42,232 nucleotides of DNA, taken from IMG/VR virus record IMGVR_UViG_3300024996_000130, positions 1-42,232 of that record, one strand, 5' to 3'. Both the position numbers and the translations under genes were made by a program. Below, piece by piece: positions 5,184 to 18,206 of this stretch (position 1 is its first letter; every line of letters starts with the position of its first letter). The DNA comes from a virus (lineage: Duplodnaviria > Caudoviricetes). The notes under the pieces were generated by a model. It did not search any database, had not been told where the DNA came from, and saw only the letters and a list, made by a program, of their open reading frames with translations.

Positions 5184-5386
5184 GCCGCGTCCCTTCCATC
5201 GAGTGGAAAGGGAAGGCCCATGCGCTCGCCCTCGGTCGCGAAAATCGCGTGGCCGCAGGTGTTGCAGATATAGCGTTCGGTGCCCGCCATATGGGTGCCG
5301 GCAATGCCGTGCGCGGCGTCATGCACATGGCTGTGCTCTGTCGGCCGTTCGCAATGCGGGCAATGCACGCTGGTGCCCGTGGTCAT
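5180..5386 (-). CDS. Small zinc-ribbon protein with His-rich loop
   Basis: CPHC...CNTC; ATGA-coupled; GGAGG SD. Confidence 0.7.
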
Positions 5387-5856
5387 GCCGCCGCCCTCCA
5401 TGTGCGCACGCGCTGGTGCTCGCGCGACAGATTGCGCAGAAAGCGTGTGATGGCGATCAGGGCCGGGCGGTATTGAAGGGCCATCTGCCGCTGGAGCCCG
5501 TCCGCGCTCTGGCATTGCAACAGAAAGATGTTGGCCCGCACCAATTGCAGCGTGGCCGCGAAGTCGGGATTGGCATCGACCAGCCATGCCACCGCTCTTT
5601 GCGCATGCATCACGGTGGTGTGGTGACGGCCACCGAAAAAGCGGCCGATGGCGGGAAACGACATGGCGGTCATTTCGCGCACCAGTGCCATGGCCATCTG
5701 GCGCGGGCGCGCCACGGCTCGGCATCGGTCTTGCCCGCGCAGCGCGGCATAGCTGAGCTTCGGGTGTGCAATCAGCACCGCGGCCATGATCTCTGCAATG
5801 GTGGGACGCCAGACTTCCGCCGCGTCTGTCTCTGGCGTGGGGAATGCGAGGGTCAT
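5383..5856 (-). CDS. Stand-alone DnaA C-terminal (domain IV) HTH protein
   Basis: [10 protein letters not shown]...[20 protein letters not shown] matches the DnaA domain IV signature. Confidence 0.88.
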
Positions 5857-6413
5857 TGCGCGCACCCCCGGCCGATTGTGGCGCCGCCGTCTTCAGGGTT
5901 CGTGAATTTGCGCCAATGCACCCAGCCGGCATCCGGGCAGTGGAAGCCCCATTCCCGCCAGACCGGTCCCGTGACGAACAGCGTCCAGCAATCATCGGGT
6001 TCGTCGATCTCGACACGGTGGGCCGCGCGGGGACCGCGCACCACGATGTCGCCCGCGTGACGCTCGACGCGATGGTTTATGCCGCCCGCGGCGATGGTGT
6101 GTTCAATGTAGAAACCGCTCAGCAGAAGAGAGCAGTTGAACCAGGGATGGTCGTGCAATGCGCGATCATCGTCGCTGCGTAGAAACTGATGCAGATAGAG
6201 GTTCGGCAGAATGGACTTCAGTGCGCGCTGCCACCATGTGGGTTGATCGCGCCACCAGCCGCTCCATGGCGTCAGATACCAGCGGCGGAGGTATGGTTGA
6301 TCCGCCCCGCCGATCACGACGTCGGGCGCGCGCTCCAGTGCAACGCGGCTATATAGAGCGATGCGAAGCGGCCAGATCAGCTTGCGGGCGTAAAGACTGT
6401 GCCACATTGTCAT
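5853..6413 (-). CDS. Cupin-like phage protein
   Basis: [47 protein letters not shown]. Confidence 0.8.
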
Positions 6414-7748: not shown

Positions 7749-7800
7749 CGATAATCGCAATAAAACGCGACTGTCAACTTAAAGACGCAATATAACGCGT
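7749..7800 (-). promoter_or_regulatory. PL promoter with operators OL1 (7755-7770) and OL2 (7785-7800)
   Basis: TTGACA on minus strand at 7777-7772; operators TCGCA-ATAAAA-CGCGA and ACGCA-ATATAA-CGCGT. Confidence 0.82.
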
Positions 7801-7853
7801 TTCGTTATAGTGGCCTAGAATGGTTAAATCGCCCCCAGTTGGGGGCTACGAAC

Positions 7854-8366
7854 ATGATTGTAAATGGAATTCGGGTGCGAATCGTACTTTTGGGGGTTCT
7901 TTCGTTACTGGTTTGCCCATGGGTCACACACGCGTATGCGAGTGGCGGTATCGACGATCAATACATCGAGAATTATTCGCGTGAACTTGATGCCAAGGTC
8001 GCGGCTGCTAAGCAAAGCGAAATAGCGCGCGTCGAAAAGGCTATCGTTGACAATCGACATCCCGCATCGTTGGCAGCAGGGGAGCGGTCGATCAAGGAAT
8101 TGATGAAGGATCCTTCGTCGGTTCAATTCCGGCGTCTGAAGCAAAAGAAGATGGATCAGTCGCAGTTCGTTTGCGGAGAATTCAACGCAAAAAATAGCTA
8201 TGGGGGCTATGTGGGTTTCAAGCGCTTCATCGCGAACGCAGGCGGGGTCATCGCCTTTGACGGCGACGATACGGGGCCGTTTGCATGGGCATTAGCCGAA
8301 GCCGGCATGGGCAGCTATCTCGGATCGACGCCGAACCCAGCTATCACCCAATTTTGCGAGTCATAG
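7854..8366 (+). CDS. Exported/membrane-anchored moron protein in the immunity region
   Basis: Signal-like N-terminus ending AYA; VCGEFNAKNSYGGYVGFKRF motif; visibly lower GC. Confidence 0.78.
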   Translation: MIVNGIRVRIVLLGVLSLLVCPWVTHAYASGGIDDQYIENYSRELDAKVAAAKQSEIARVEKAIVDNRHPASLAAGERSIKELMKDPSSVQFRRLKQKKMDQSQFVCGEFNAKNSYGGYVGFKRFIANAGGVIAFDGDDTGPFAWALAEAGMGSYLGSTPNPAITQFCES

Positions 8367-8367
8367 A

Positions 8368-9012
8368 TCAAATCTTCCCAGCGCGCCAAACAACGCGACC
8401 AATTATGAAAATGGCCTCCGCGTCAACTGGATACGGCGGATAATGCTCTTTGTCATCACTCAGCACGCGATACTGCGTCGTCGGACTGGGCAATATTTGT
8501 AGACGTTTCACCATTGTGCTTCGGCCGGACCAAAAACAGAAAATTCCGTGATCATTTAACGGTATATTGTCCGTCGAATTCACCAGGGCCGTGTCGCCTT
8601 CTCGAAGTGTGGGACGCATAGAATCGTCCGGCACCGTGATGGCGAGCAGGTGCCCGACTACGTCGTCTGCCAAATCGGCCAGCAAGGCGCGGGGCAAATG
8701 AAGCGGCGGCCGGGCCATATCCGGACCGGCCTCAATTCCGTGATCTTCGACCGAAATAGCCAATTGTCTTATCGCGGTGGCGTCCCGGCTTATCTTGGTC
8801 TCGCGTGGGTATTCGCCTAGCAGTTCTGGTAGCGACACGTTTGCGGTTTCGGCCAGTTTCCGAACCGTGCTCAAGGTCATGCTGTTGCTGCGATTGGAGA
8901 GATAACCGCGGAGAGTGCTCTCGCGAATCCCCGCCGCTTTCGTCCATGGCGCGACTTTCAACCCTCGCTTTCGCATGAAAGCGCGGATGGCTTCTCGATC
9001 ATCAATCTTCAT
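8368..9012 (-). CDS. cI: CI-like repressor (XRE HTH + S24 peptidase)
   Basis: HTH WTKAAGIRESTLRGYL; Ala-Gly (IEAGP); DSMRP Ser and VKRL Lys; divergent from cro. Confidence 0.92.
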   Translation of the reverse strand: MKIDDREAIRAFMRKRGLKVAPWTKAAGIRESTLRGYLSNRSNSMTLSTVRKLAETANVSLPELLGEYPRETKISRDATAIRQLAISVEDHGIEAGPDMARPPLHLPRALLADLADDVVGHLLAITVPDDSMRPTLREGDTALVNSTDNIPLNDHGIFCFWSGRSTMVKRLQILPSPTTQYRVLSDDKEHYPPYPVDAEAIFIIGRVVWRAGKI

Positions 9013-9031
9013 CCGCGGAACGTCGCCGACG

Positions 9032-9110
9032 CCGCGATATAACGCGAACGCGGTATTTTGCGTTTCACGTGAAACATTCTTTGACAATCGCGTTTTAATG
9101 CGATTAATGT
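9032..9110 (+). promoter_or_regulatory. OR3 (9032-9047), OR2 (9048-9063), OR1 (9088-9103) and PR promoter (-35 TTGACA 9081-9086)
   Basis: Three copies of CGCR-N6(AT-rich)-YGCG shared with OL; PR matches PL at 24/26 nt. Confidence 0.82.
9061..9076. promoter_or_regulatory. parS-like site CGTTTCACGTGAAACA
   Basis: Perfect 14-bp palindrome GTTTCACGTGAAAC; 15/16 match to bacterial parS consensus TGTTTCACGTGAAACA. Confidence 0.78.
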
Positions 9111-9116
9111 CGAACC

Positions 9117-9458
9117 ATGGATGCGACCATGACGCCCGAAGAAACCGAGATTTCCGGTCTTTTTACCGATAGCGCTCTGCGTCGGGTGACCGATGCGGTC
9201 TCGCGCCATGGCAAATCGCGTGTGGCGGCAGTGGCGGGCATCGGGGAATCCAGCATTCGTCAGGCCGGGCGGCCTGGCTGGAACCCTACCAGCGGTGTCT
9301 TGCGCGCACTGGAAAACGCGGCGCTCGCGCTTTCGGAAAGGGCGAGCGGCACGGCGAGCGATGAGGGCGGCCAAGATCATGCCGCCCAACCTGCTCCCGC
9401 CCGCACCGCTCCGCATCCGGAATCGGCCCCGCAAATTCCGCACGGGAGCGAAGCATGA
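9117..9458 (+). CDS. cro: Cro-like HTH protein
   Basis: KSRVAAVAGIGESSIR...WNPT..VLRALE; first gene after PR. Confidence 0.78.
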   Translation: MDATMTPEETEISGLFTDSALRRVTDAVSRHGKSRVAAVAGIGESSIRQAGRPGWNPTSGVLRALENAALALSERASGTASDEGGQDHAAQPAPARTAPHPESAPQIPHGSEA

Positions 9459-11103: not shown

Positions 11104-11453
11104 AGCGTGGCCGCATGTCCCCCCGCACGATGCTGATTGTCGAATTGCGCAGCGCGGCGCAGCAGATCGCCAGTCCGCAATTCCGGCAGGCCGCGGCGAT
11201 GAGTGCCGCGAAAATCCCCATCACGCGGGCCGAACGGTTCAACCGCGGCGCCTATGGCCGGCTTGCCCGCGCGGCGCGGGCCACACTGGTGGGGCTTCAT
11301 ACCCTTGATCCGGCGGAACATGCCGCAACCGCGCAATTGCTACGGGATTTTGCCGATGCGTTGGCCACACCGCGACATCAGGTGCGGATTTCGGAATCGG
11401 TTCTGGGTGGCCGCGAATTTCCGCGTGGCAGCAAACGGGTAGGGGCAGCATGA
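11100..11453 (+). CDS. Hypothetical protein
   Basis: GAGG SD; ATGA-coupled both sides. Confidence 0.65.
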   Translation: MKRGRMSPRTMLIVELRSAAQQIASPQFRQAAAMSAAKIPITRAERFNRGAYGRLARAARATLVGLHTLDPAEHAATAQLLRDFADALATPRHQVRISESVLGGREFPRGSKRVGAA

Positions 11454-12238
11454 CGAACGTGCCGGTATCGATCTGGACCGATCAAATGGTCGAGAAGGTC
11501 AGAACATTATGGATATCCGGTGTCAGCGCCGCGCGCATTGCGCAGACAGTGGGCCACGGTCTCACGCGCAACGCGGTCATCAGCAAAATGCACCGCATGC
11601 ACACGCTGGGTGCGATTCCCGAGCGGGACTACAAGCGTGCCGCGCGGTCCAGCATGCTCGCGCTCCGCGGTCGGGTCGTACAGTTTCATGAGACAGGCGG
11701 CTGGACGGACGCGCGGCTGGCGCGGCTGAAAAAACTTTGGATATCCGGTTGTGCCATCCCTGACATCGCGGTCGAGATTGGTGGCGGTTTGTCCGAAGTT
11801 GCCTGTTCAAAGAGAATAACCAGGCTGCGCGCTGCGGGTGAATTGACGTCGGAAGATATGCATGCGCGCGAACATGCGCGCGCGGCGCGCAGAGCGTTCG
11901 CCAGGGCACAGAAGCCAGTGGCGGACATGGCGCGTGCATCGACCGCAGCGAAGTCGGCAATGACCATTGCGGTTGCGCCAGTGCTTCGGGAACCCGAACC
12001 CGCGCGCATCAACGATCATTTTGTGCGCCCGGTGGATCTGGAACGCGGGCAATGCAAATGGCCGATCGGGGAGGTGGGCGATCCCGATTTCCACCATTGC
12101 GCCAACCCGATTCATAGGGACGGCAAGCCGTATTGTGAGTTTCACACGCACATGGCGTTCACCACCGGTGCCGGCAAAGAGCGTGTCGATGCCGTCAATG
12201 CCGCGGCCCTGCGCACCTTTGCGCGCGTGGGCATGTAA
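11450..12238 (+). CDS. gcrA: GcrA-family regulator with two tandem N-terminal HTH domains
   Basis: WTDQMVE..LW..G.SA..IA...TRNAVISK.HR; second WTDARLARLKKLW..G...IA; C-terminal CKWPIGE...FHHC...PYCEFH. Confidence 0.9.
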   Translation: MTNVPVSIWTDQMVEKVRTLWISGVSAARIAQTVGHGLTRNAVISKMHRMHTLGAIPERDYKRAARSSMLALRGRVVQFHETGGWTDARLARLKKLWISGCAIPDIAVEIGGGLSEVACSKRITRLRAAGELTSEDMHAREHARAARRAFARAQKPVADMARASTAAKSAMTIAVAPVLREPEPARINDHFVRPVDLERGQCKWPIGEVGDPDFHHCANPIHRDGKPYCEFHTHMAFTTGAGKERVDAVNAAALRTFARVGM

Positions 12239-13689
12239 TGGGCGATATCACCGTGCTCAACGCCGATTGCCGCGAAGCGATAAAAGACATCGCGGACAAC
12301 AGTGTCGACGCATGCGTGACCGATCCGCCTTACGCACTCGTCTCCATCGGCAAGCGTTTCGGAAAAGATGGTGCCGCACCGGCCAAGGATCGCGACGGGC
12401 TCTATAAGCGTGCCTCCGCGGGGTTCATGGGCCAGAAATGGGATACCGGCGAAACCGCCTTCGATCCGGCGTTCTGGCGCGAGGTTTATCGCGTGCTGAA
12501 ACCCGGTGCGCATGTGGTGGCGTTTTCCGGCACCCGCACCTATCACCGAATGGCGTGTGCGATCGAGGATGCGGGCTTTGAAATCCGCGATGCGCTGGTC
12601 GATCTGGTGCAAGGCGACACGGCGGTGGTGCAGTTCATGGCCACGCTGTGCGATGTGCAGGCGGAAGCCTGGGCGCGCTGTCTCGAAGAAAGCGGCTTCG
12701 GCGGCATGCTGGCGTGGATTTACGGCAGCGGTTTTCCGAAGTCGCACGACATCAGCAAGGCGCTCGACAAGATGGCAGGCGCAGAACGTCGTGTGGTTGC
12801 GGAAGGTGCGCCGGTCAAACGGATGATTCCGGGTGCCGATCAGCACAAGGGTGGCTGGGAAAAGAACGACGGTCGCGTCTTCGTGCCAACGGAAACCGCG
12901 CCAGCAACGGATGAAGCGGTTTATTGGGATGGGTGGGGCACGGCTCTCAAGCCTGCGCTGGAGCCGATTTGTTTCGCGCGCAAGCCGATCACGGAATCCT
13001 CGATAGCGCGCAATGTATTGAAACATGGCACGGGTGCGCTGAATATCGATGGGTGCCGGATCGAATCCGAATGCGAAACCGGCTGGAGCGGTGCCGCTGC
13101 CGGTGGGCATAGCTGGGATGACTCCAATAGCGGGCTTTGCAAAGATGGCGCCGCTCGCCCGGTTGACGGCCGCTGGCCTGCCAATGTTGTTCATGACGGC
13201 AGTGATGAAGTGTTGGCAGCGTTTCCGGCGGTCGGGAATTCTCATCCACCCGACAATGCGGGCGGTATGCGTTCGAACCATGTCTTCGGCGCCGACCGTA
13301 ATCCGCGCAGCTTTCATCCAGGCTTTGGTGATTCCGGCTCCGCCGCCCGTTTCTTCTATTCCGCCAAGGCCGATGCGGAAGATCGGCTGGGCTCGAAACA
13401 TCCCACGGTCAAACCCATCCAATTGATGCGCTGGCTGGTGCGGCTGATCACACCGCCGGGCGGTCTGGTGCTCGATCCCTTCGCGGGCAGCGGCACCACT
13501 GGCGTGGCCGCGCTGGCCGAAGGCATGCGCGCGGTTCTGATCGAGCGTGATCCCACCTTTGCCGAAGACATCCGCATTCGCGCGCGCCACGCAAGCGGGC
13601 AAGCCGGTCATTCGGCCCAGATCAAACAACGCAATCGCGAGGCGCGCGGTGACATGCCGCTGTTCGCAAATCAGGAGGCAGGAGGATGA
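12238..13689 (+). CDS. Beta-class N6-adenine/N4-cytosine DNA methyltransferase
   Basis: VTDPPY, YGSGFPK, HPTVKP, VLDPFAGSGTTG (catalytic motif before SAM motif). Confidence 0.93.
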   Translation: MGDITVLNADCREAIKDIADNSVDACVTDPPYALVSIGKRFGKDGAAPAKDRDGLYKRASAGFMGQKWDTGETAFDPAFWREVYRVLKPGAHVVAFSGTRTYHRMACAIEDAGFEIRDALVDLVQGDTAVVQFMATLCDVQAEAWARCLEESGFGGMLAWIYGSGFPKSHDISKALDKMAGAERRVVAEGAPVKRMIPGADQHKGGWEKNDGRVFVPTETAPATDEAVYWDGWGTALKPALEPICFARKPITESSIARNVLKHGTGALNIDGCRIESECETGWSGAAAGGHSWDDSNSGLCKDGAARPVDGRWPANVVHDGSDEVLAAFPAVGNSHPPDNAGGMRSNHVFGADRNPRSFHPGFGDSGSAARFFYSAKADAEDRLGSKHPTVKPIQLMRWLVRLITPPGGLVLDPFAGSGTTGVAALAEGMRAVLIERDPTFAEDIRIRARHASGQAGHSAQIKQRNREARGDMPLFANQEAGG

Positions 13690-14072
13690 GGACCATGGAA
13701 TCCACGATCGAACACCCGGAGGCGGAAATTCAGCCGCCGCATACGAACGTGCCGAAGAGCTTCAACACATTCCTGTTGGAGCAGGGGGGCGGCACTGTTC
13801 ACGCCGAACTGAGCGAGAAGCTTCGCGATCTGGTCGAAGCCATCGAAATGAACTTCAACCGCTTTCCCGGCAAGACGGTTGGCGAGCTTCATCTGAAGAT
13901 GAAGATCACGCTTGACCGCGGCGCATACAAGGTCACCACCGAATATTCGGCCAAGGCGCCGAAAGCGCCGACCAACGATCAGATCATGTATCTGGGCGGT
14001 GACGGCAATCTGCAAACCACCAATCCGCGGCAATTGACGATGTTCGGTGAGAAACCGCGCGTCGTCGTCTGA
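13686..14072 (+). CDS. YfdP-like prophage protein (typical DUF2303 neighbour)
   Basis: ELSEKLRDLV...GELHLKMKI...DGNLQTTNPRQLTMF. Confidence 0.72.
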   Translation: MRTMESTIEHPEAEIQPPHTNVPKSFNTFLLEQGGGTVHAELSEKLRDLVEAIEMNFNRFPGKTVGELHLKMKITLDRGAYKVTTEYSAKAPKAPTNDQIMYLGGDGNLQTTNPRQLTMFGEKPRVVV

Positions 14073-14170
14073 TCTTTTCGTCACCGCCTTCGCGCGCGGG
14101 GCGGATGGCGCAAATTGGGCGCGCACAATTGGCGCCGGGGCATGCGGCCCTGGGCCATCAGGAGAGCATT

Positions 14171-15121
14171 ATGGAAACAGACGCAAAATCCAACACGGTG
14201 GAGGCGGTGGCCGCCCTGGCGCGCAAGGCGCTGGGCACCGAAGTCAATACGATCAACCGGCAGCGTGACGGCGATGTGCCGTTCATCGTGATTGACAATG
14301 GCCGCAAGGTGCAGCCGGCCGCCGATCTGATCGAGGCTTACGAGCGCACACAAAGCGCGCCGTTCCGCCGCCGCGGCACGTACAGGGCGGCCGATGTCAA
14401 AAGCCTGCTGGCGTGGATGGGATCGGAATGTGCGGAGAACGCCCCGGTCTTCGCGGAAGGGGCGGAGAATCTGGCCGAACAATGGGCCAAACCCAAGCTG
14501 GCTTTGGTCGGCATCGGCAATTATTCGGCCGGTTCGGCGCCATCATGGCATGACTTCAATGCCCGCTATGAATTTCCAGTGACCATGGCCTGGCGCCGCT
14601 GGGTGGAGAAGAACCGCGAATTCATGGATCAGGCCGAATTCGCAGAGTTTGTCGAGGAACATCTTTACGAATTCAACGAACCGGTGCGTGGTGAAGTGCT
14701 GAGCGAAGCGGTGACCCAGATGATCGAGGCGCTGGGCGGCACCAAAACGGTGGCGAATCCCGGCAAAATCTACGATCTGGCGCGCGGCATTAAGATTACC
14801 GTTTCGGAAAAGGTCGAAGTGGCGCTCGATCGTTCCACCGGAGAGCAGACTCTGCGATTCAGCGAAGAGCATACGGGCGCTTCCGGCCGTCCGGTTTCGG
14901 TGCCGAAATTCTTCTACATCCGCATACCGATCTTCTTCGGAGAAGAACCGCAATTGATCGGCGCGTTGCTGCGCTATCGCAATGCGGGCGGCGGCAAGGT
15001 GGTTTGGTCTTATGATTTGGTGGCGCCCGATCTGGTGATGAAGGATGCGTTTGATCGCGCCTGCCAGATCGTCACCAAGACAGGACGCACGCTCTATCTG
15101 GGCACACCCGACACGCCGTAA
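14171..15121 (+). CDS. DUF2303 (YfdQ-like) protein
   Basis: GGAG SD; PFRRRGT, MDQAEFAEFVEEH, VPKFFYIRIPIF, LRYR. Confidence 0.85.
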   Translation: METDAKSNTVEAVAALARKALGTEVNTINRQRDGDVPFIVIDNGRKVQPAADLIEAYERTQSAPFRRRGTYRAADVKSLLAWMGSECAENAPVFAEGAENLAEQWAKPKLALVGIGNYSAGSAPSWHDFNARYEFPVTMAWRRWVEKNREFMDQAEFAEFVEEHLYEFNEPVRGEVLSEAVTQMIEALGGTKTVANPGKIYDLARGIKITVSEKVEVALDRSTGEQTLRFSEEHTGASGRPVSVPKFFYIRIPIFFGEEPQLIGALLRYRNAGGGKVVWSYDLVAPDLVMKDAFDRACQIVTKTGRTLYLGTPDTP

Positions 15122-15133
15122 TCGGCATCACCG

Positions 15134-15160
15134 CACGCGGGGTCCGGCCCGCGTGTCATT
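15134..15160 (+). terminator. Possible terminator or processing hairpin
   Basis: CACGCGGG-6nt-CCCGCGTG followed by a weak T-rich tail. Confidence 0.4.
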
Positions 15161-15179
15161 ATTCGTAAGGGCTTGGGGC

Positions 15180-16811
15180 GTGAGCCGTCGCAAAATTCTT
15201 GTTGCCGATCTTCTCTGCGGCGCTGGTGGCTCGTCCACGGGATGTGCGCGGGCACTGGATGAGCTTGGTCTGGAGATGGAACTTGTCTGTGTGAATCACT
15301 GGCCGGTGGCTATTGAGACCCACAGGATCAATCATCCCGAAGCACGTCATTATGTGCAGGATATCGCCACGGTACGGCCGCATCTGATCGTGCCGGAAGG
15401 CTATCTCGATCTTTTGATGGCATCGCCCACCTGCACGCATCATTCGGTTGCGCGGGGTGGAAAACCCACCAGCGACCAGCAGCGCAGCGATCCGTGGCAC
15501 ATCATAACCTGGCTCACCGAACTGCGGGTCAAACGGATCGTCATTGAGAATGTCTGGGAATTTATCGGTTGGGGTCCAGTCGATCGGAGAACGGGCAGAC
15601 CGATCAAATCGCGCAAGGGCGAGTATTTCCATGCGTGGATCGACACAATTCGTCGGATAGGCTTCGAGCCAGAGTGGCGGAAGCTGAACGCGGCCAATTA
15701 TGGCGATGCTACCACGCGCCAGCGTTTCATCCTGAAAGCACGGAATGACCGCAAAGTGGTGCGGTGGGCACCCATCACGCACGGGAAGGCGGAAGACGAT
15801 ATTCTGCTATTCCCCAGCTTGAAACCATGGCGGCCGGCGCGGGAGATCATTGACTGGTCGATCAAAGGCAAATCCATTTTTCATCGACCCAAGTCCCTCG
15901 CGCCGAAGACTCTGGCACGCATCTATGCTGGCGCGGTGAAGTTCAAATGGCCCGAGCCCTATCTTGTCATCCTGCGCAACCATATGGCCGCGCAAAGCCT
16001 TGATGAGCCGCTGCCGACCATCGCGGCGAACGGCACGCATATTGGAATTGCCGAGCCGATTGTACTTTCGCAGCACAATAGCGGCGCAGCCCGAACCGTG
16101 GGTGAGCCATTGCCTACGATCACAACCGGCGGGGCTGGCGCGGAAAAACATGAAGGGTGTGCCAGGCCGATGCTGGTCGAGCCGTTCGTGCTTTCCCGGC
16201 AGACCTGTGGTGCGCTGCGATCGGTAGACGAACCCATCCCGACGCAGACATCGGTCCACTCCCCAGTCCTGATATCGCCATACTATGGGTCTGGGTCTGG
16301 GGAGACATGTCAGAGCGCCGATAAGCCGCTGCCTACGGTCACCGCAAAGGCCCGTTTCGGCATTGTCATTCCCGTGACGCATGGCGGCGGCGAGACTCGC
16401 GCTACCGACGTCAATGATCCCCTGCCGACCGTGACCGGCGCCAATCGCGGTGAACTGGCCTTCGTCACCGCGCAATTCGGGGAGAGGGAAGGGCAGGCGC
16501 CGCGCACGCACAGCCTGGATCAACCGGCCTCCACCGGAATGACGCTGGGAAACGGCGCGCTGATCGAAGGCACAGAGGAATACGACATCCTGTTTCGGAT
16601 GCTGGAACCGCATGAGCTGGCCGGAGCGATGGGCTTTACCACCGAAGATCATGCCTACCAGTTTGCGGGCACAAAAACCCAGAAGATCAAGCAGATCGGC
16701 AATGCGGTTTCGGTCGCGATGATGAAGGCTGAGGTCAAAGCGATCATGGCCGACGCTGCTCCGAAGAAGAAACAATCACATGAATTCGAACTTGGCGAGG
16801 CCGCGGCATGA
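15180..16811 (+). CDS. C5-cytosine DNA methyltransferase (GTG start)
   Basis: DLLCGAGG, ASPTC, IENV, TTRQRF, KQIGNAV; repeated PLPT(I/V)T units. Confidence 0.93.
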   Translation: MSRRKILVADLLCGAGGSSTGCARALDELGLEMELVCVNHWPVAIETHRINHPEARHYVQDIATVRPHLIVPEGYLDLLMASPTCTHHSVARGGKPTSDQQRSDPWHIITWLTELRVKRIVIENVWEFIGWGPVDRRTGRPIKSRKGEYFHAWIDTIRRIGFEPEWRKLNAANYGDATTRQRFILKARNDRKVVRWAPITHGKAEDDILLFPSLKPWRPAREIIDWSIKGKSIFHRPKSLAPKTLARIYAGAVKFKWPEPYLVILRNHMAAQSLDEPLPTIAANGTHIGIAEPIVLSQHNSGAARTVGEPLPTITTGGAGAEKHEGCARPMLVEPFVLSRQTCGALRSVDEPIPTQTSVHSPVLISPYYGSGSGETCQSADKPLPTVTAKARFGIVIPVTHGGGETRATDVNDPLPTVTGANRGELAFVTAQFGEREGQAPRTHSLDQPASTGMTLGNGALIEGTEEYDILFRMLEPHELAGAMGFTTEDHAYQFAGTKTQKIKQIGNAVSVAMMKAEVKAIMADAAPKKKQSHEFELGEAAA

Positions 16812-17161
16812 GCCACATTCATCGGCGGATATTTGCGGCCATCGAAGATCGTCCGTCTGGAATGGCGACAGCCAGCCAAATTGCGGCCCGGTGCGATCTG
16901 CCACTTGTGCAGGTTCGCATGGAGGTAAATGCGCTCTGCGATGAGAAATCTCTCCTTGCCCGCGAGAGCGATGGTGGGGAATGCGTCTATTCCATAGCCG
17001 TCGCATCCGACGTGACCACAGTGCAACAGCGCGACGAATTATGCGAGGCGGAACGGATGTGGCGCGACCGATTGGGAAAACAGCGCTGGCGGGATGATCC
17101 GCGCGCTTTGCGGGAACGGAGTGCGCCAGTCGGCATACGTCCGCCATGGGGCGCACGATGA
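16808..17161 (+). CDS. Winged-helix-like hypothetical protein
   Basis: ATASQIAARCDLPLVQVRMEVNAL..KSLL; ATGA coupling. Confidence 0.6.
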   Translation: MSHIHRRIFAAIEDRPSGMATASQIAARCDLPLVQVRMEVNALCDEKSLLARESDGGECVYSIAVASDVTTVQQRDELCEAERMWRDRLGKQRWRDDPRALRERSAPVGIRPPWGAR

Positions 17162-17334
17162 CGGGCCGCAACATGAATGTGCTGAAGGATGTGGCGCTCA
17201 AATATGTGGGCGCGCTCGATCGCTACCGCCGCGCCATGCGCCAGGGCGACACGCGGCGGGCCGATGATGCGCTTGCCGAAATGCAGGAACTGGAACGGGA
17301 TGTGATCGTGATCCGGCAGCGGAGGCCAGCATGA
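17158..17334 (+). CDS. Small helical hypothetical protein
   Basis: ATGA coupling both sides. Confidence 0.6.
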   Translation: MTGRNMNVLKDVALKYVGALDRYRRAMRQGDTRRADDALAEMQELERDVIVIRQRRPA

Positions 17335-18206
17335 TCGCGCCGCCGCGCCCGGCGTTACGATGGTATGGAGGGAAGTGGAAATTGGCACCGTGTATCATCA
17401 ATCACCTTCCGCCGCACCGTGTTTATGTCGAACCGTATGGTGGCGCGATGAGTGTGCTTCTGCGCAAAGAACGGTCCTATGCCGAGGTCTACAATGATCT
17501 GGATGGAGACGTGGTGAACTTCTTTCGGGTGTTGCGCAATGAAGCCATGGCGCCCCGCCTTCTTGAACGGCTGCGTTTGACACCATTCGCAAGGGTGGAG
17601 TTCGAGGCGGCTTATGAGTTGACAGATGATCCGGTGGAACGTGCCAGCAGGCTCGCAATCCTTTCGTTCATGGGTTTCGGGTCAAACGCGCACTCGCGTA
17701 CGCCGACTGGGTTTCGCGCCAACAGCAACCGGTCGGGGACTACGCCGGCGCATGACTGGTGCAACTACCCTGATGCGTTGTCGATTTTGATTGATCGCTT
17801 GCGTGGTGTGATCATTGAGAGCCGCGATGCGCTTCAGGTGATGGCGCAGCACGACGGGCGGCACACGTTGCACTATGTCGACCCGCCTTATGTCCATGCT
17901 ACCCGAGGCCGGGGTCGGATGTCCGATGTTTTGTATCGTGGATATGCTGTCGAGCTAAGCGATGACGATCACGAAAGTCTTCTGAAGTTCCTTCGCACAT
18001 TAAAAGGCTGCGTCGTTTTGTCGGGATACCCGCATCCGATCTACGACAATCTGCTCTCGGACTGGTTGCGGTTCGAACGTGCTGCGCATGCCGATGGCGC
18101 GCGAGATCGGACCGAGGTCTTATGGCTCAATGATGCCGCGTTTTCCTCGCTTCACAATCGGCAGGACGATTTGCCGTTGACGGTTTCGGCGAGGGCAATG
18201 TCATGA
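17331..18206 (+). CDS. Dam/D12-class DNA adenine methyltransferase
   Basis: WYGGK, YVEPYGG, EVYND, YVDPPY, VLSGY, TEVLW. Confidence 0.93.
   Translation: MIAPPRPALRWYGGKWKLAPCIINHLPPHRVYVEPYGGAMSVLLRKERSYAEVYNDLDGDVVNFFRVLRNEAMAPRLLERLRLTPFARVEFEAAYELTDDPVERASRLAILSFMGFGSNAHSRTPTGFRANSNRSGTTPAHDWCNYPDALSILIDRLRGVIIESRDALQVMAQHDGRHTLHYVDPPYVHATRGRGRMSDVLYRGYAVELSDDDHESLLKFLRTLKGCVVLSGYPHPIYDNLLSDWLRFERAAHADGARDRTEVLWLNDAAFSSLHNRQDDLPLTVSARAMS

What the first reader, a model, noticed from the sequence alone, without database searches (positions are those of the whole stretch)
9061..9076. A chromosomal-type parS site inside the cI/cro lysis-lysogeny switch
Seen: CGTTTCACGTGAAACA overlaps OR2 by 3 bp and ends 4 bp before the PR -35 box; it does not resemble the phage operator consensus, I found no other copy, and no parA/parB gene is in the window. 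Known: TGTTTCACGTGAAACA is the parS consensus bound by host ParB, a CTP-dependent clamp that spreads and can silence nearby promoters. Inference: the phage may use host ParB as a co-regulator, tying induction to cell cycle or CTP status, or to segregate the excised circle.
Basis: partly seen in the sequence, partly recalled or inferred. Interest (0 to 1): 0.88.

Follow-up and report, generated by a model that had tools for sequence, protein, structure and literature searches.

The report
Repressor-gated host centromere in prophage switch
A prophage of an alphaproteobacterium carries a near-perfect copy of the bacterial chromosome-segregation site parS overlapping a predicted repressor operator in its lysis-lysogeny switch, so the repressor likely hides the site during dormancy and host ParB would load once the repressor is gone, a layout seen again in relatives and in one unrelated phage.

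Summary
CGTTTCACGTGAAACA (9061-9076) is the only parS match in the prophage (15/16; chance about 1e-4 per window). It overlaps predicted operator OR2 by 3 bp and ends 4 bp before the PR -35 box. The five operators share an unrelated consensus, and no ParA or ParB was found. Three of 9 readable family members carry a parS-like site here: this one, a 14/16 copy in L519, and one seen only as the in-frame peptide VSRET in P0006. Six lack it. An unrelated lambdoid phage (L192) has parS overlapping its OL2 operator by the same 3 bp, outside the cI-cro gap. In the likely host order, 98 of 121 genomes carry the identical core, mostly twice. The shared feature is overlap with an operator, so the best reading is a repressor-gated ParB loading site: masked in the lysogen, open after induction or infection. 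No binding was tested. Host parS use by phage is known (phi29); I found no paper on operator gating. Earlier scan notes reported the same interlock on other DNA (e1-5824700, e1-5824680).

The parts
9061..9076 (.). Host-type parS (15/16 to consensus, perfect 14-bp core)
   Evidence: identical 16-mer upstream of a parA-like gene in L462/L464 and in G005
9048..9063 (.). Predicted operator OR2, overlapping parS by 3 bp
   Evidence: one of five copies of W-CGCR-N6-YGCG-W; same position in L519; binding inferred
9032..9047 (.). Predicted operator OR3, over the inferred PRM -35 region
   Evidence: same distance from the cI start, within 1 bp, in L519 and L520
9088..9103 (.). Predicted operator OR1, between the PR -35 and -10 boxes
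   Evidence: same layout at PL and in L519 and L520
9081..9110 (+). Predicted PR promoter (TTGACA 9081-9086; -10 near 9104-9110)
   Evidence: read from sequence; TTTGACAAT conserved in L519 and L520; the generic sigma-70 scan did not call it
9012..9047 (-). Inferred leaderless PRM (possible -10 at 9024-9019, weak -35)
   Evidence: inference by analogy with lambda; untested
7755..7800 (-). Predicted OL1 and OL2 (30 bp apart) with PL -35 at 7777-7772; no parS here
   Evidence: spacing 29 bp in both relatives
8368..9012 (-). cI repressor (HTH_26 plus Peptidase_S24)
   Evidence: Pfam and PHROG hits
9117..9458 (+). cro-like gene
   Evidence: position; no Pfam or PHROG hit; XRE/CII-like atlas neighbours at 0.92; 63% identical to the gene at the same place in L600
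1..1215 (-). Tyrosine integrase; the element is an integrated provirus
   Evidence: the longer contig continues about 118 kb past this end

Best explanation
The palindrome matches the bacterial parS consensus at 15 of 16 bases and overlaps the predicted operator OR2 by 3 bp, so host ParB likely binds it, repressor on OR2 would exclude ParB in the lysogen, and ParB would load only when repressor is absent, after induction or early in infection. Shown: the site, its geometry, no par genes in the record, the same core in host-order genomes, and recurrence in relatives and in one unrelated phage. Inferred: (1) CI dimers on OR2 and OR1 mask and fence the site; the centres of OR2 and parS are only 13 bp apart and their outer half-sites share bases. 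This would spare the lysogen an extra centromere. (2) Without CI, ParB-CTP clamps load and slide, giving phage DNA a handle on the host ParA and polar machinery. (3) Replicating phage copies would compete with the host's roughly two parS sites, which could stall segregation and division during the lytic cycle. ParB at this spot may also hinder CI rebinding at OR2 or dampen PR, as a side effect.
For: Site and geometry. Relative L519 (CI 38% identical) has a 14/16 copy with one perfect half-site, overlapping its OR2 by 2 bp; apart from the one perfect chromosomal site it is the best match in that 3-Mb genome; chance of such a core in 22 nt is 2-3e-5. P0006 (CI 39% identical) has a mis-called N-terminal extension reading VSRET, the in-frame translation of the core, in the window's exact register, while 7 of 8 neighbouring non-operator codons differ (VSRE background 1.2e-5 per position). 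Unrelated L192: parS 1881-1896 overlaps a CAAG-N3-CTTG operator at 1871-1883 by 3 bp; that motif has 5 copies against 0.12 expected, 4 of them at PL and PR. Host side: 98 of 121 genomes carry the exact core, mostly 2 copies, reversed control 1 of 121. Cost of an unmasked site: in Caulobacter single strong plasmid-borne parS sites cut viability 100-1000-fold and a mid-arm insertion disturbs segregation (PMC5815017, passages). A bound repressor blocks ParB sliding in vitro (PMC7053999, passages).
Against: No binding or phenotype data. Six of 9 readable family members lack the site (L520 as DNA; P0013, P0014, P0026, P0029, P0156 from protein extensions read by eye). L519's copy has two changes in one half and may bind weakly. 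P0006's DNA was not obtained; only 4 of 1152 codon choices for VSRET give the exact core. OR2 is the least symmetric right-hand operator (10 of 16 positions) and lies 40 bp from OR1, against 30 bp at OL, so how fully CI occupies it is unknown. No parS near cI in 80 distant cI loci or in 72 further, partly redundant ones. Only 2 of 308 parS-selected viral loci had a clear repressor gene nearby. The true host genome and the distance from oriC are unknown. What ParB loading does for the phage is conjecture.
Confidence: 0.5

Rival explanations
1. Host ParB is mainly a co-regulator of the switch: it represses PR or displaces CI from OR2, so that the lysis-lysogeny choice follows ParB or CTP status.
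For: The site lies 4 bp upstream of the PR -35 (3 bp in L519, 9 bp upstream of PL in L192). ParB represses promoters next to parS3 and parS4 in P. aeruginosa (PMC5521831, abstract). The ParB-family clamp KorB becomes a repressor when stalled by KorA (PMC11790492, abstract). In the parS-bearing phages OR2 sits 10 bp further from OR1 than the operator-like site in L520, with parS filling the gap. The window's CI lacks the family's conserved cleavage-loop motif, so another induction input is conceivable.
Against: L192's site is at OL, where it cannot touch PRM. Six of 9 relatives run the same switch without it. P0006 and L519 keep the cleavage loop. CTP lowers ParB occupancy of parS itself (PMC7053999, passages), which makes it a poor static repressor without a lock.
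Confidence: 0.25
2. The site is for another host factor whose motif parS happens to fit, chiefly a Clr-type CRP protein (HGTYHC-N4-GRWACA).
For: The window's site fits that consensus fully, and L519's fits the older TGTT-N8-AACA form (motifs from PMC10187061, passages).
Against: Any parS fits this loose motif; a Clr box would give the exact parS core only about 1 time in 6000 (my arithmetic from the consensus). None of the CRP-family domains read from G267 and G001 (8 of 12 matches translated, including all 7 over the cut-off) has Clr's RPKVNR helix (the genomes may be incomplete). The site centre, about -48 from the likely PR start, is not a usual CRP activator position (recalled).
Confidence: 0.07
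3. The palindrome is the operator of a phage protein (Cro, an antirepressor or another HTH protein) and resembles parS by convergence.
Against: Single copy; 0-2 of 16 bases shared with the CI operators. It does not track the Cro recognition helix: Cro back-read by eye from P0006's extension resembles L520's, which lacks the site, not the window's. No ParB_N match in the record, and the only parB_part match in G267 is the chromosomal one.
Confidence: 0.06
4. Chance match or decaying relic with no present role.
For: A scan of some 250,000 windows would meet tens of exact cores by chance; the site is patchy in the family and degenerate in L519.
Against: It recurs at the same place in CI lineages only 38-39% identical, and with the same operator overlap in an unrelated phage.
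Confidence: 0.12

Closest known systems
Host parS sites of Bacillus phage phi29, used with Spo0J (PMC2731898, abstract and passages)
   Same: A phage genome carries host-type parS and uses host ParB; reported for segregation of phage DNA into the prespore.
   Different: phi29 is non-integrating and has five sites, and in the passages read repression comes from Spo0A boxes. Here one site overlaps a CI operator in an integrated lambdoid prophage.
Chromosomal ParABS of Alphaproteobacteria (Caulobacter; PMC5815017, PMC7383237, PMC7053999, passages)
   Same: Same site sequence; parS-type ParB residues in the related prophage's host.
   Different: Single site, no parAB, on a mobile element, interlocked with an operator.
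SGI1 parS mimics that hijack IncC parABS (PMC10954446, abstract)
   Same: An integrative element carries a parS copy without par genes; its replication raises the site's copy number, stabilises the element and harms the owner of the system.
   Different: The target there is a helper plasmid's system, with a helper protein Sci; the abstract mentions no repressor gating.
KorB-KorA of plasmid RK2 (PMC11790492, abstract)
   Same: A ParB-family clamp and a DNA-bound repressor act beside a promoter.
   Different: Both proteins are plasmid-encoded and cooperate by contact; here the clamp is the host's and the overlap predicts exclusion.
Lambda-type CI/Cro switch (recalled)
   Same: Divergent cI and cro-like genes, three right and two left operators, S24 repressor, CII-like gene downstream.
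   Different: OR2 to OR1 spacing is 40 bp with a host-protein site between them.

Membership tests
Chromosomal-type parS | 16-bp palindrome matching TGTTTCACGTGAAACA | tested here: met
   15/16, perfect core
Chromosomal-type parS | Host group uses this sequence and has a parS-specific ParB | tested here: met
   98 of 121 genomes; R173/T179/G201 equivalents in G267 and G001 ParB, read by eye (rule from PMC7383237). The exact host was not identified.
Chromosomal-type parS | Bound by ParB, loads CTP-dependent clamps | not testable with these tools
   needs EMSA, BLI or ChIP
Chromosomal-type parS | Clustered near oriC or parAB | tested here: not met
   single copy and no parAB in the record; distance to oriC unknown
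phi29-type use of host ParB by a phage | Host parS on phage DNA without phage par genes | tested here: met
   right end of the prophage may be missing
phi29-type use of host ParB by a phage | Site improves segregation or retention of phage DNA | not testable with these tools
   needs imaging or stability assays
Phage-encoded ParABS or ParB-own-site systems | Own parA or parB gene | tested here: not met
   0 matches at E<=0.1
CI operator of this phage | Matches W-CGCR-N6-YGCG-W | tested here: not met
   0-2 of 16 bases shared
Clr (CRP-family) box | Fits HGTYHC-N4-GRWACA | tested here: met
   motif; any parS fits it
Clr (CRP-family) box | Host encodes a Clr-type RPKVNR helix | tested here: inconclusive
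   not seen in two related host genomes; true host not available
Lambdoid CI/Cro switch | HTH-S24 repressor divergent from a small HTH gene with shared operators | tested here: met
   the Cro assignment rests on position and weak atlas hits

The most novel reading that the evidence does not exclude
Temperate phages of several bacterial groups have independently built a conditional centromere: a host parS interlocked with a repressor operator, hidden in the lysogen and exposed on induction, when host ParB both carries the phage DNA and is drained from the host's own two-site centromere to halt division, and perhaps also locks the switch by keeping CI off O2.
Probability: 0.35. Interest if true: 0.85.

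Novelty: new variant of a known kind. Interest (0 to 1): 0.62.

Why it matters
Extra parS copies harm alphaproteobacterial cells, so a prophage that keeps one needs a way to hide it. Overlap with a repressor operator would do that with no extra gene and would couple the phage's developmental switch to the host's segregation machinery. It is a simple, testable design: a 110-bp fragment, CI and ParB in Caulobacter are enough. It would also be a natural switchable parS, of use for studying ParB loading and roadblocks.

Tried and rejected
Close relatives are scarce. Single-protein and alignment scans of viral contigs returned only distant repressors, none with parS near cI. A class-wide sample of 401 genomes gave no new close member, and its 20 new loci had no site within 3 mismatches. 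A PR-layout pattern in viral contigs gave 25 loci, one with a repressor gene (L576) and none with parS upstream of the match. A parS-plus-minus35 pattern in metagenomes found only this phage's own contig and two chromosomal parA loci, not P0006's DNA. A half-site-plus-minus35 pattern over 301 genomes was at control level and uninformative. Pfam on 150 of 186 distinct ORFs flanking divergent parS sites showed no XRE or S24 repressor. Eight further host-order parS regions and the dispersed sites of G004 showed no similarity to this phage's proteins or repressors. P0013's IFRET looked like a half-parS but by register is its OR2. No CtrA, alpha-LexA or DnaA box (recalled motifs) in the window. The CI tree does not unite the parS carriers, with weak support. 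Host DNA beyond the integrase could not be read, so the position relative to oriC stays open. No RNA holder listed. L192's region had no match among annotated phages. No structure or complex prediction was run, as none would test DNA binding.

Full report
Setting. The window is the whole record G000, a provirus. It has an integrase at the left end, an HTH-S24 repressor at 8368-9012 (-), a cro-like gene at 9117-9458 (+), a CII-like gene, a GcrA homologue, a DnaA C-terminal HTH gene, three methyltransferases and lambdoid head and tail genes. The same DNA lies at one end of a 160-kb contig that runs about 118 kb past the integrase. The host is alphaproteobacterial by inference: one integrase relative (62%) is named Rhizomicrobium sp., and the closest repressors turned up in the order of G001, whose record title says Alphaproteobacteria. 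The order's name was not shown.

Observation. The site is real and unique. The exact 14-bp core is expected 0.7-2.4e-4 times per window. Across a very large scan that alone would not be decisive, so placement and recurrence carry the argument. The phage's own operators are a different 16-mer, two copies at PL and three in the cI-cro gap, and PL and PR share one layout, TTGACA then 2 bp then operator. parS overlaps OR2 by 3 bp and stops 4 bp short of the PR -35. No ParB_N or ParA-type domain was found in the record; CheckV rates it 55% complete, so the right end may be missing.

Relatives. Of 301 genomes in the order, 2 held a close repressor. Both keep the same 42-nt stretch between OR3 and OR1. 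L519 has a 14/16 parS copy with one perfect half, shifted by 1 nt and overlapping its OR2 by 2 bp. L520 has no parS; an operator-like palindrome sits there instead, about 30 bp from OR1 as at OL. Several database repressors were called with upstream extensions that translate the control region. I set their register by eye, from the -35 box (Leu-Ser) and operator codons; P0277, which is L519's protein, confirms the method. P0006 reads VSRET in the window's exact register, while 7 of 8 neighbouring non-operator codons differ. P0013, P0014, P0026, P0029 and P0156 show no such word. So 3 of 9 readable members carry the site, one known only from protein. The repressor tree does not group the three carriers and support is weak, so gain, loss or module exchange cannot be told apart. 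Distant repressor loci had none (80 of 80; 72 of 72, partly the same contigs).

An independent case. I screened 308 parS-selected viral loci (not dereplicated, many with short flanks) with a repressor profile; 2 had a clear repressor gene nearby. L192 is a lambdoid immunity region with an unrelated CI. Its operator motif has 5 copies against 0.12 expected, and parS overlaps the OL2 copy by 3 bp, 9 bp upstream of the PL -35. L160 has a perfect parS just after its cro-like gene, 1 bp from another palindrome; whether that palindrome is an operator is unknown. Neither record has ParB_N or a second site, though both are fragments. I looked at L192's geometry after reading earlier scan notes on a parS-operator interlock in a Bradyrhizobium-like phage; those notes gave me the gating idea and are not evidence.

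Host side. The exact core is present in 98 of 121 sampled genomes of the order, mostly as two copies about 1-2 kb apart, with the reversed control in 1. In G267, host of L519, parB lies 1.5 kb from the one perfect site and carries the parS-type residues (rule from PMC7383237, passages). In Caulobacter one strong plasmid-borne parS lowers viability 100-1000-fold and a mid-arm pair disturbs segregation (PMC5815017, parts 2-3 of 7 and passages; the site sequences are in figures I could not see, and I read no supplements). ParB needs CTP to leave parS and is blocked by a bound repressor (PMC7053999, passages).

Mechanism. What the three DNA-level cases share is overlap with the second operator of an early lytic promoter, at OR or at OL. 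With centres 11.5-14 bp apart, a CI dimer and a ParB dimer would compete (inference). The lysogen would then be spared an ectopic centromere, and the site would open on induction or before repressor builds up. ParB loading could position or partition phage DNA, as reported for phi29 (PMC2731898, abstract and passages), and many phage copies could out-compete the host's two sites, as SGI1 does to IncC plasmids (PMC10954446, abstract). The GcrA and DnaA-like genes suggest interest in the host cell cycle, but L520's phage has them without parS, so they add little. A Clr box fits the letters (PMC10187061, passages) yet predicts the exact core poorly, and no Clr-type helix was seen in two related hosts.

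Novelty. Phage use of host parS is known, and about 8400 stored viral stretches hold the core by the tool's estimate, host fragments included. In the listings of six searches (titles and abstract starts only, open-licence library) I saw no paper on a parS gated by a phage repressor operator. The scan itself noted the layout before on other DNA. I file it as a new variant of a known kind: the site is probably a true host-ParB target (about 0.75-0.8), gating is the likeliest logic (0.5), and nothing has been tested at the bench.

Noticed in passing
window 8368-9012 (-), residues about 81-95: The CI keeps the S24 catalytic Ser and Lys but lacks the A-x-x-G-x-G loop kept in the 13 other aligned family members; it may not self-cleave, so induction may need another route.
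   Followed up: partly
L192:1846-1896: Unrelated lambdoid phage: parS overlaps the predicted OL2 operator by 3 bp, upstream of PL.
   Followed up: yes
L160:2483-2523: Temperate phage with serine integrase, cI and cro-like genes; perfect parS just after cro, next to two overlapping palindromes.
   Followed up: partly
window 5383-5865 (-) and 11450-12238 (+): Stand-alone DnaA C-terminal HTH gene and GcrA homologue; the DnaA-like gene is in both related prophages, GcrA in one. Possible cell-cycle effectors.
   Followed up: partly
window 12238-18206 (+): Three DNA methyltransferase genes of different classes in the early right operon.
   Followed up: no
window 7839-8366 (+): A secreted-looking unknown gene sits between OL and cI; a homologue lies at the same place in L600, and an unrelated membrane-type gene in L192. 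Possible superinfection exclusion.
   Followed up: no
G004 (L549-L552), G026 (L650, L651), G202: Some genomes have many exact parS cores: 4 dispersed ones in G004, 7 on separate contigs in G026, 14 in G202. Those checked show no link to this phage.
   Followed up: partly
L600:1-55: The related prophage's contig starts with what looks like a tRNA 3' end, probably its attachment site (read by eye).
   Followed up: no
INPHARED phages: Many isolated phages of Clostridium, Microbacterium, Listeria, Bacillus, Gordonia and Lactobacillus, and one of Ruegeria, match the parS-containing query, often at several places.
   Followed up: no
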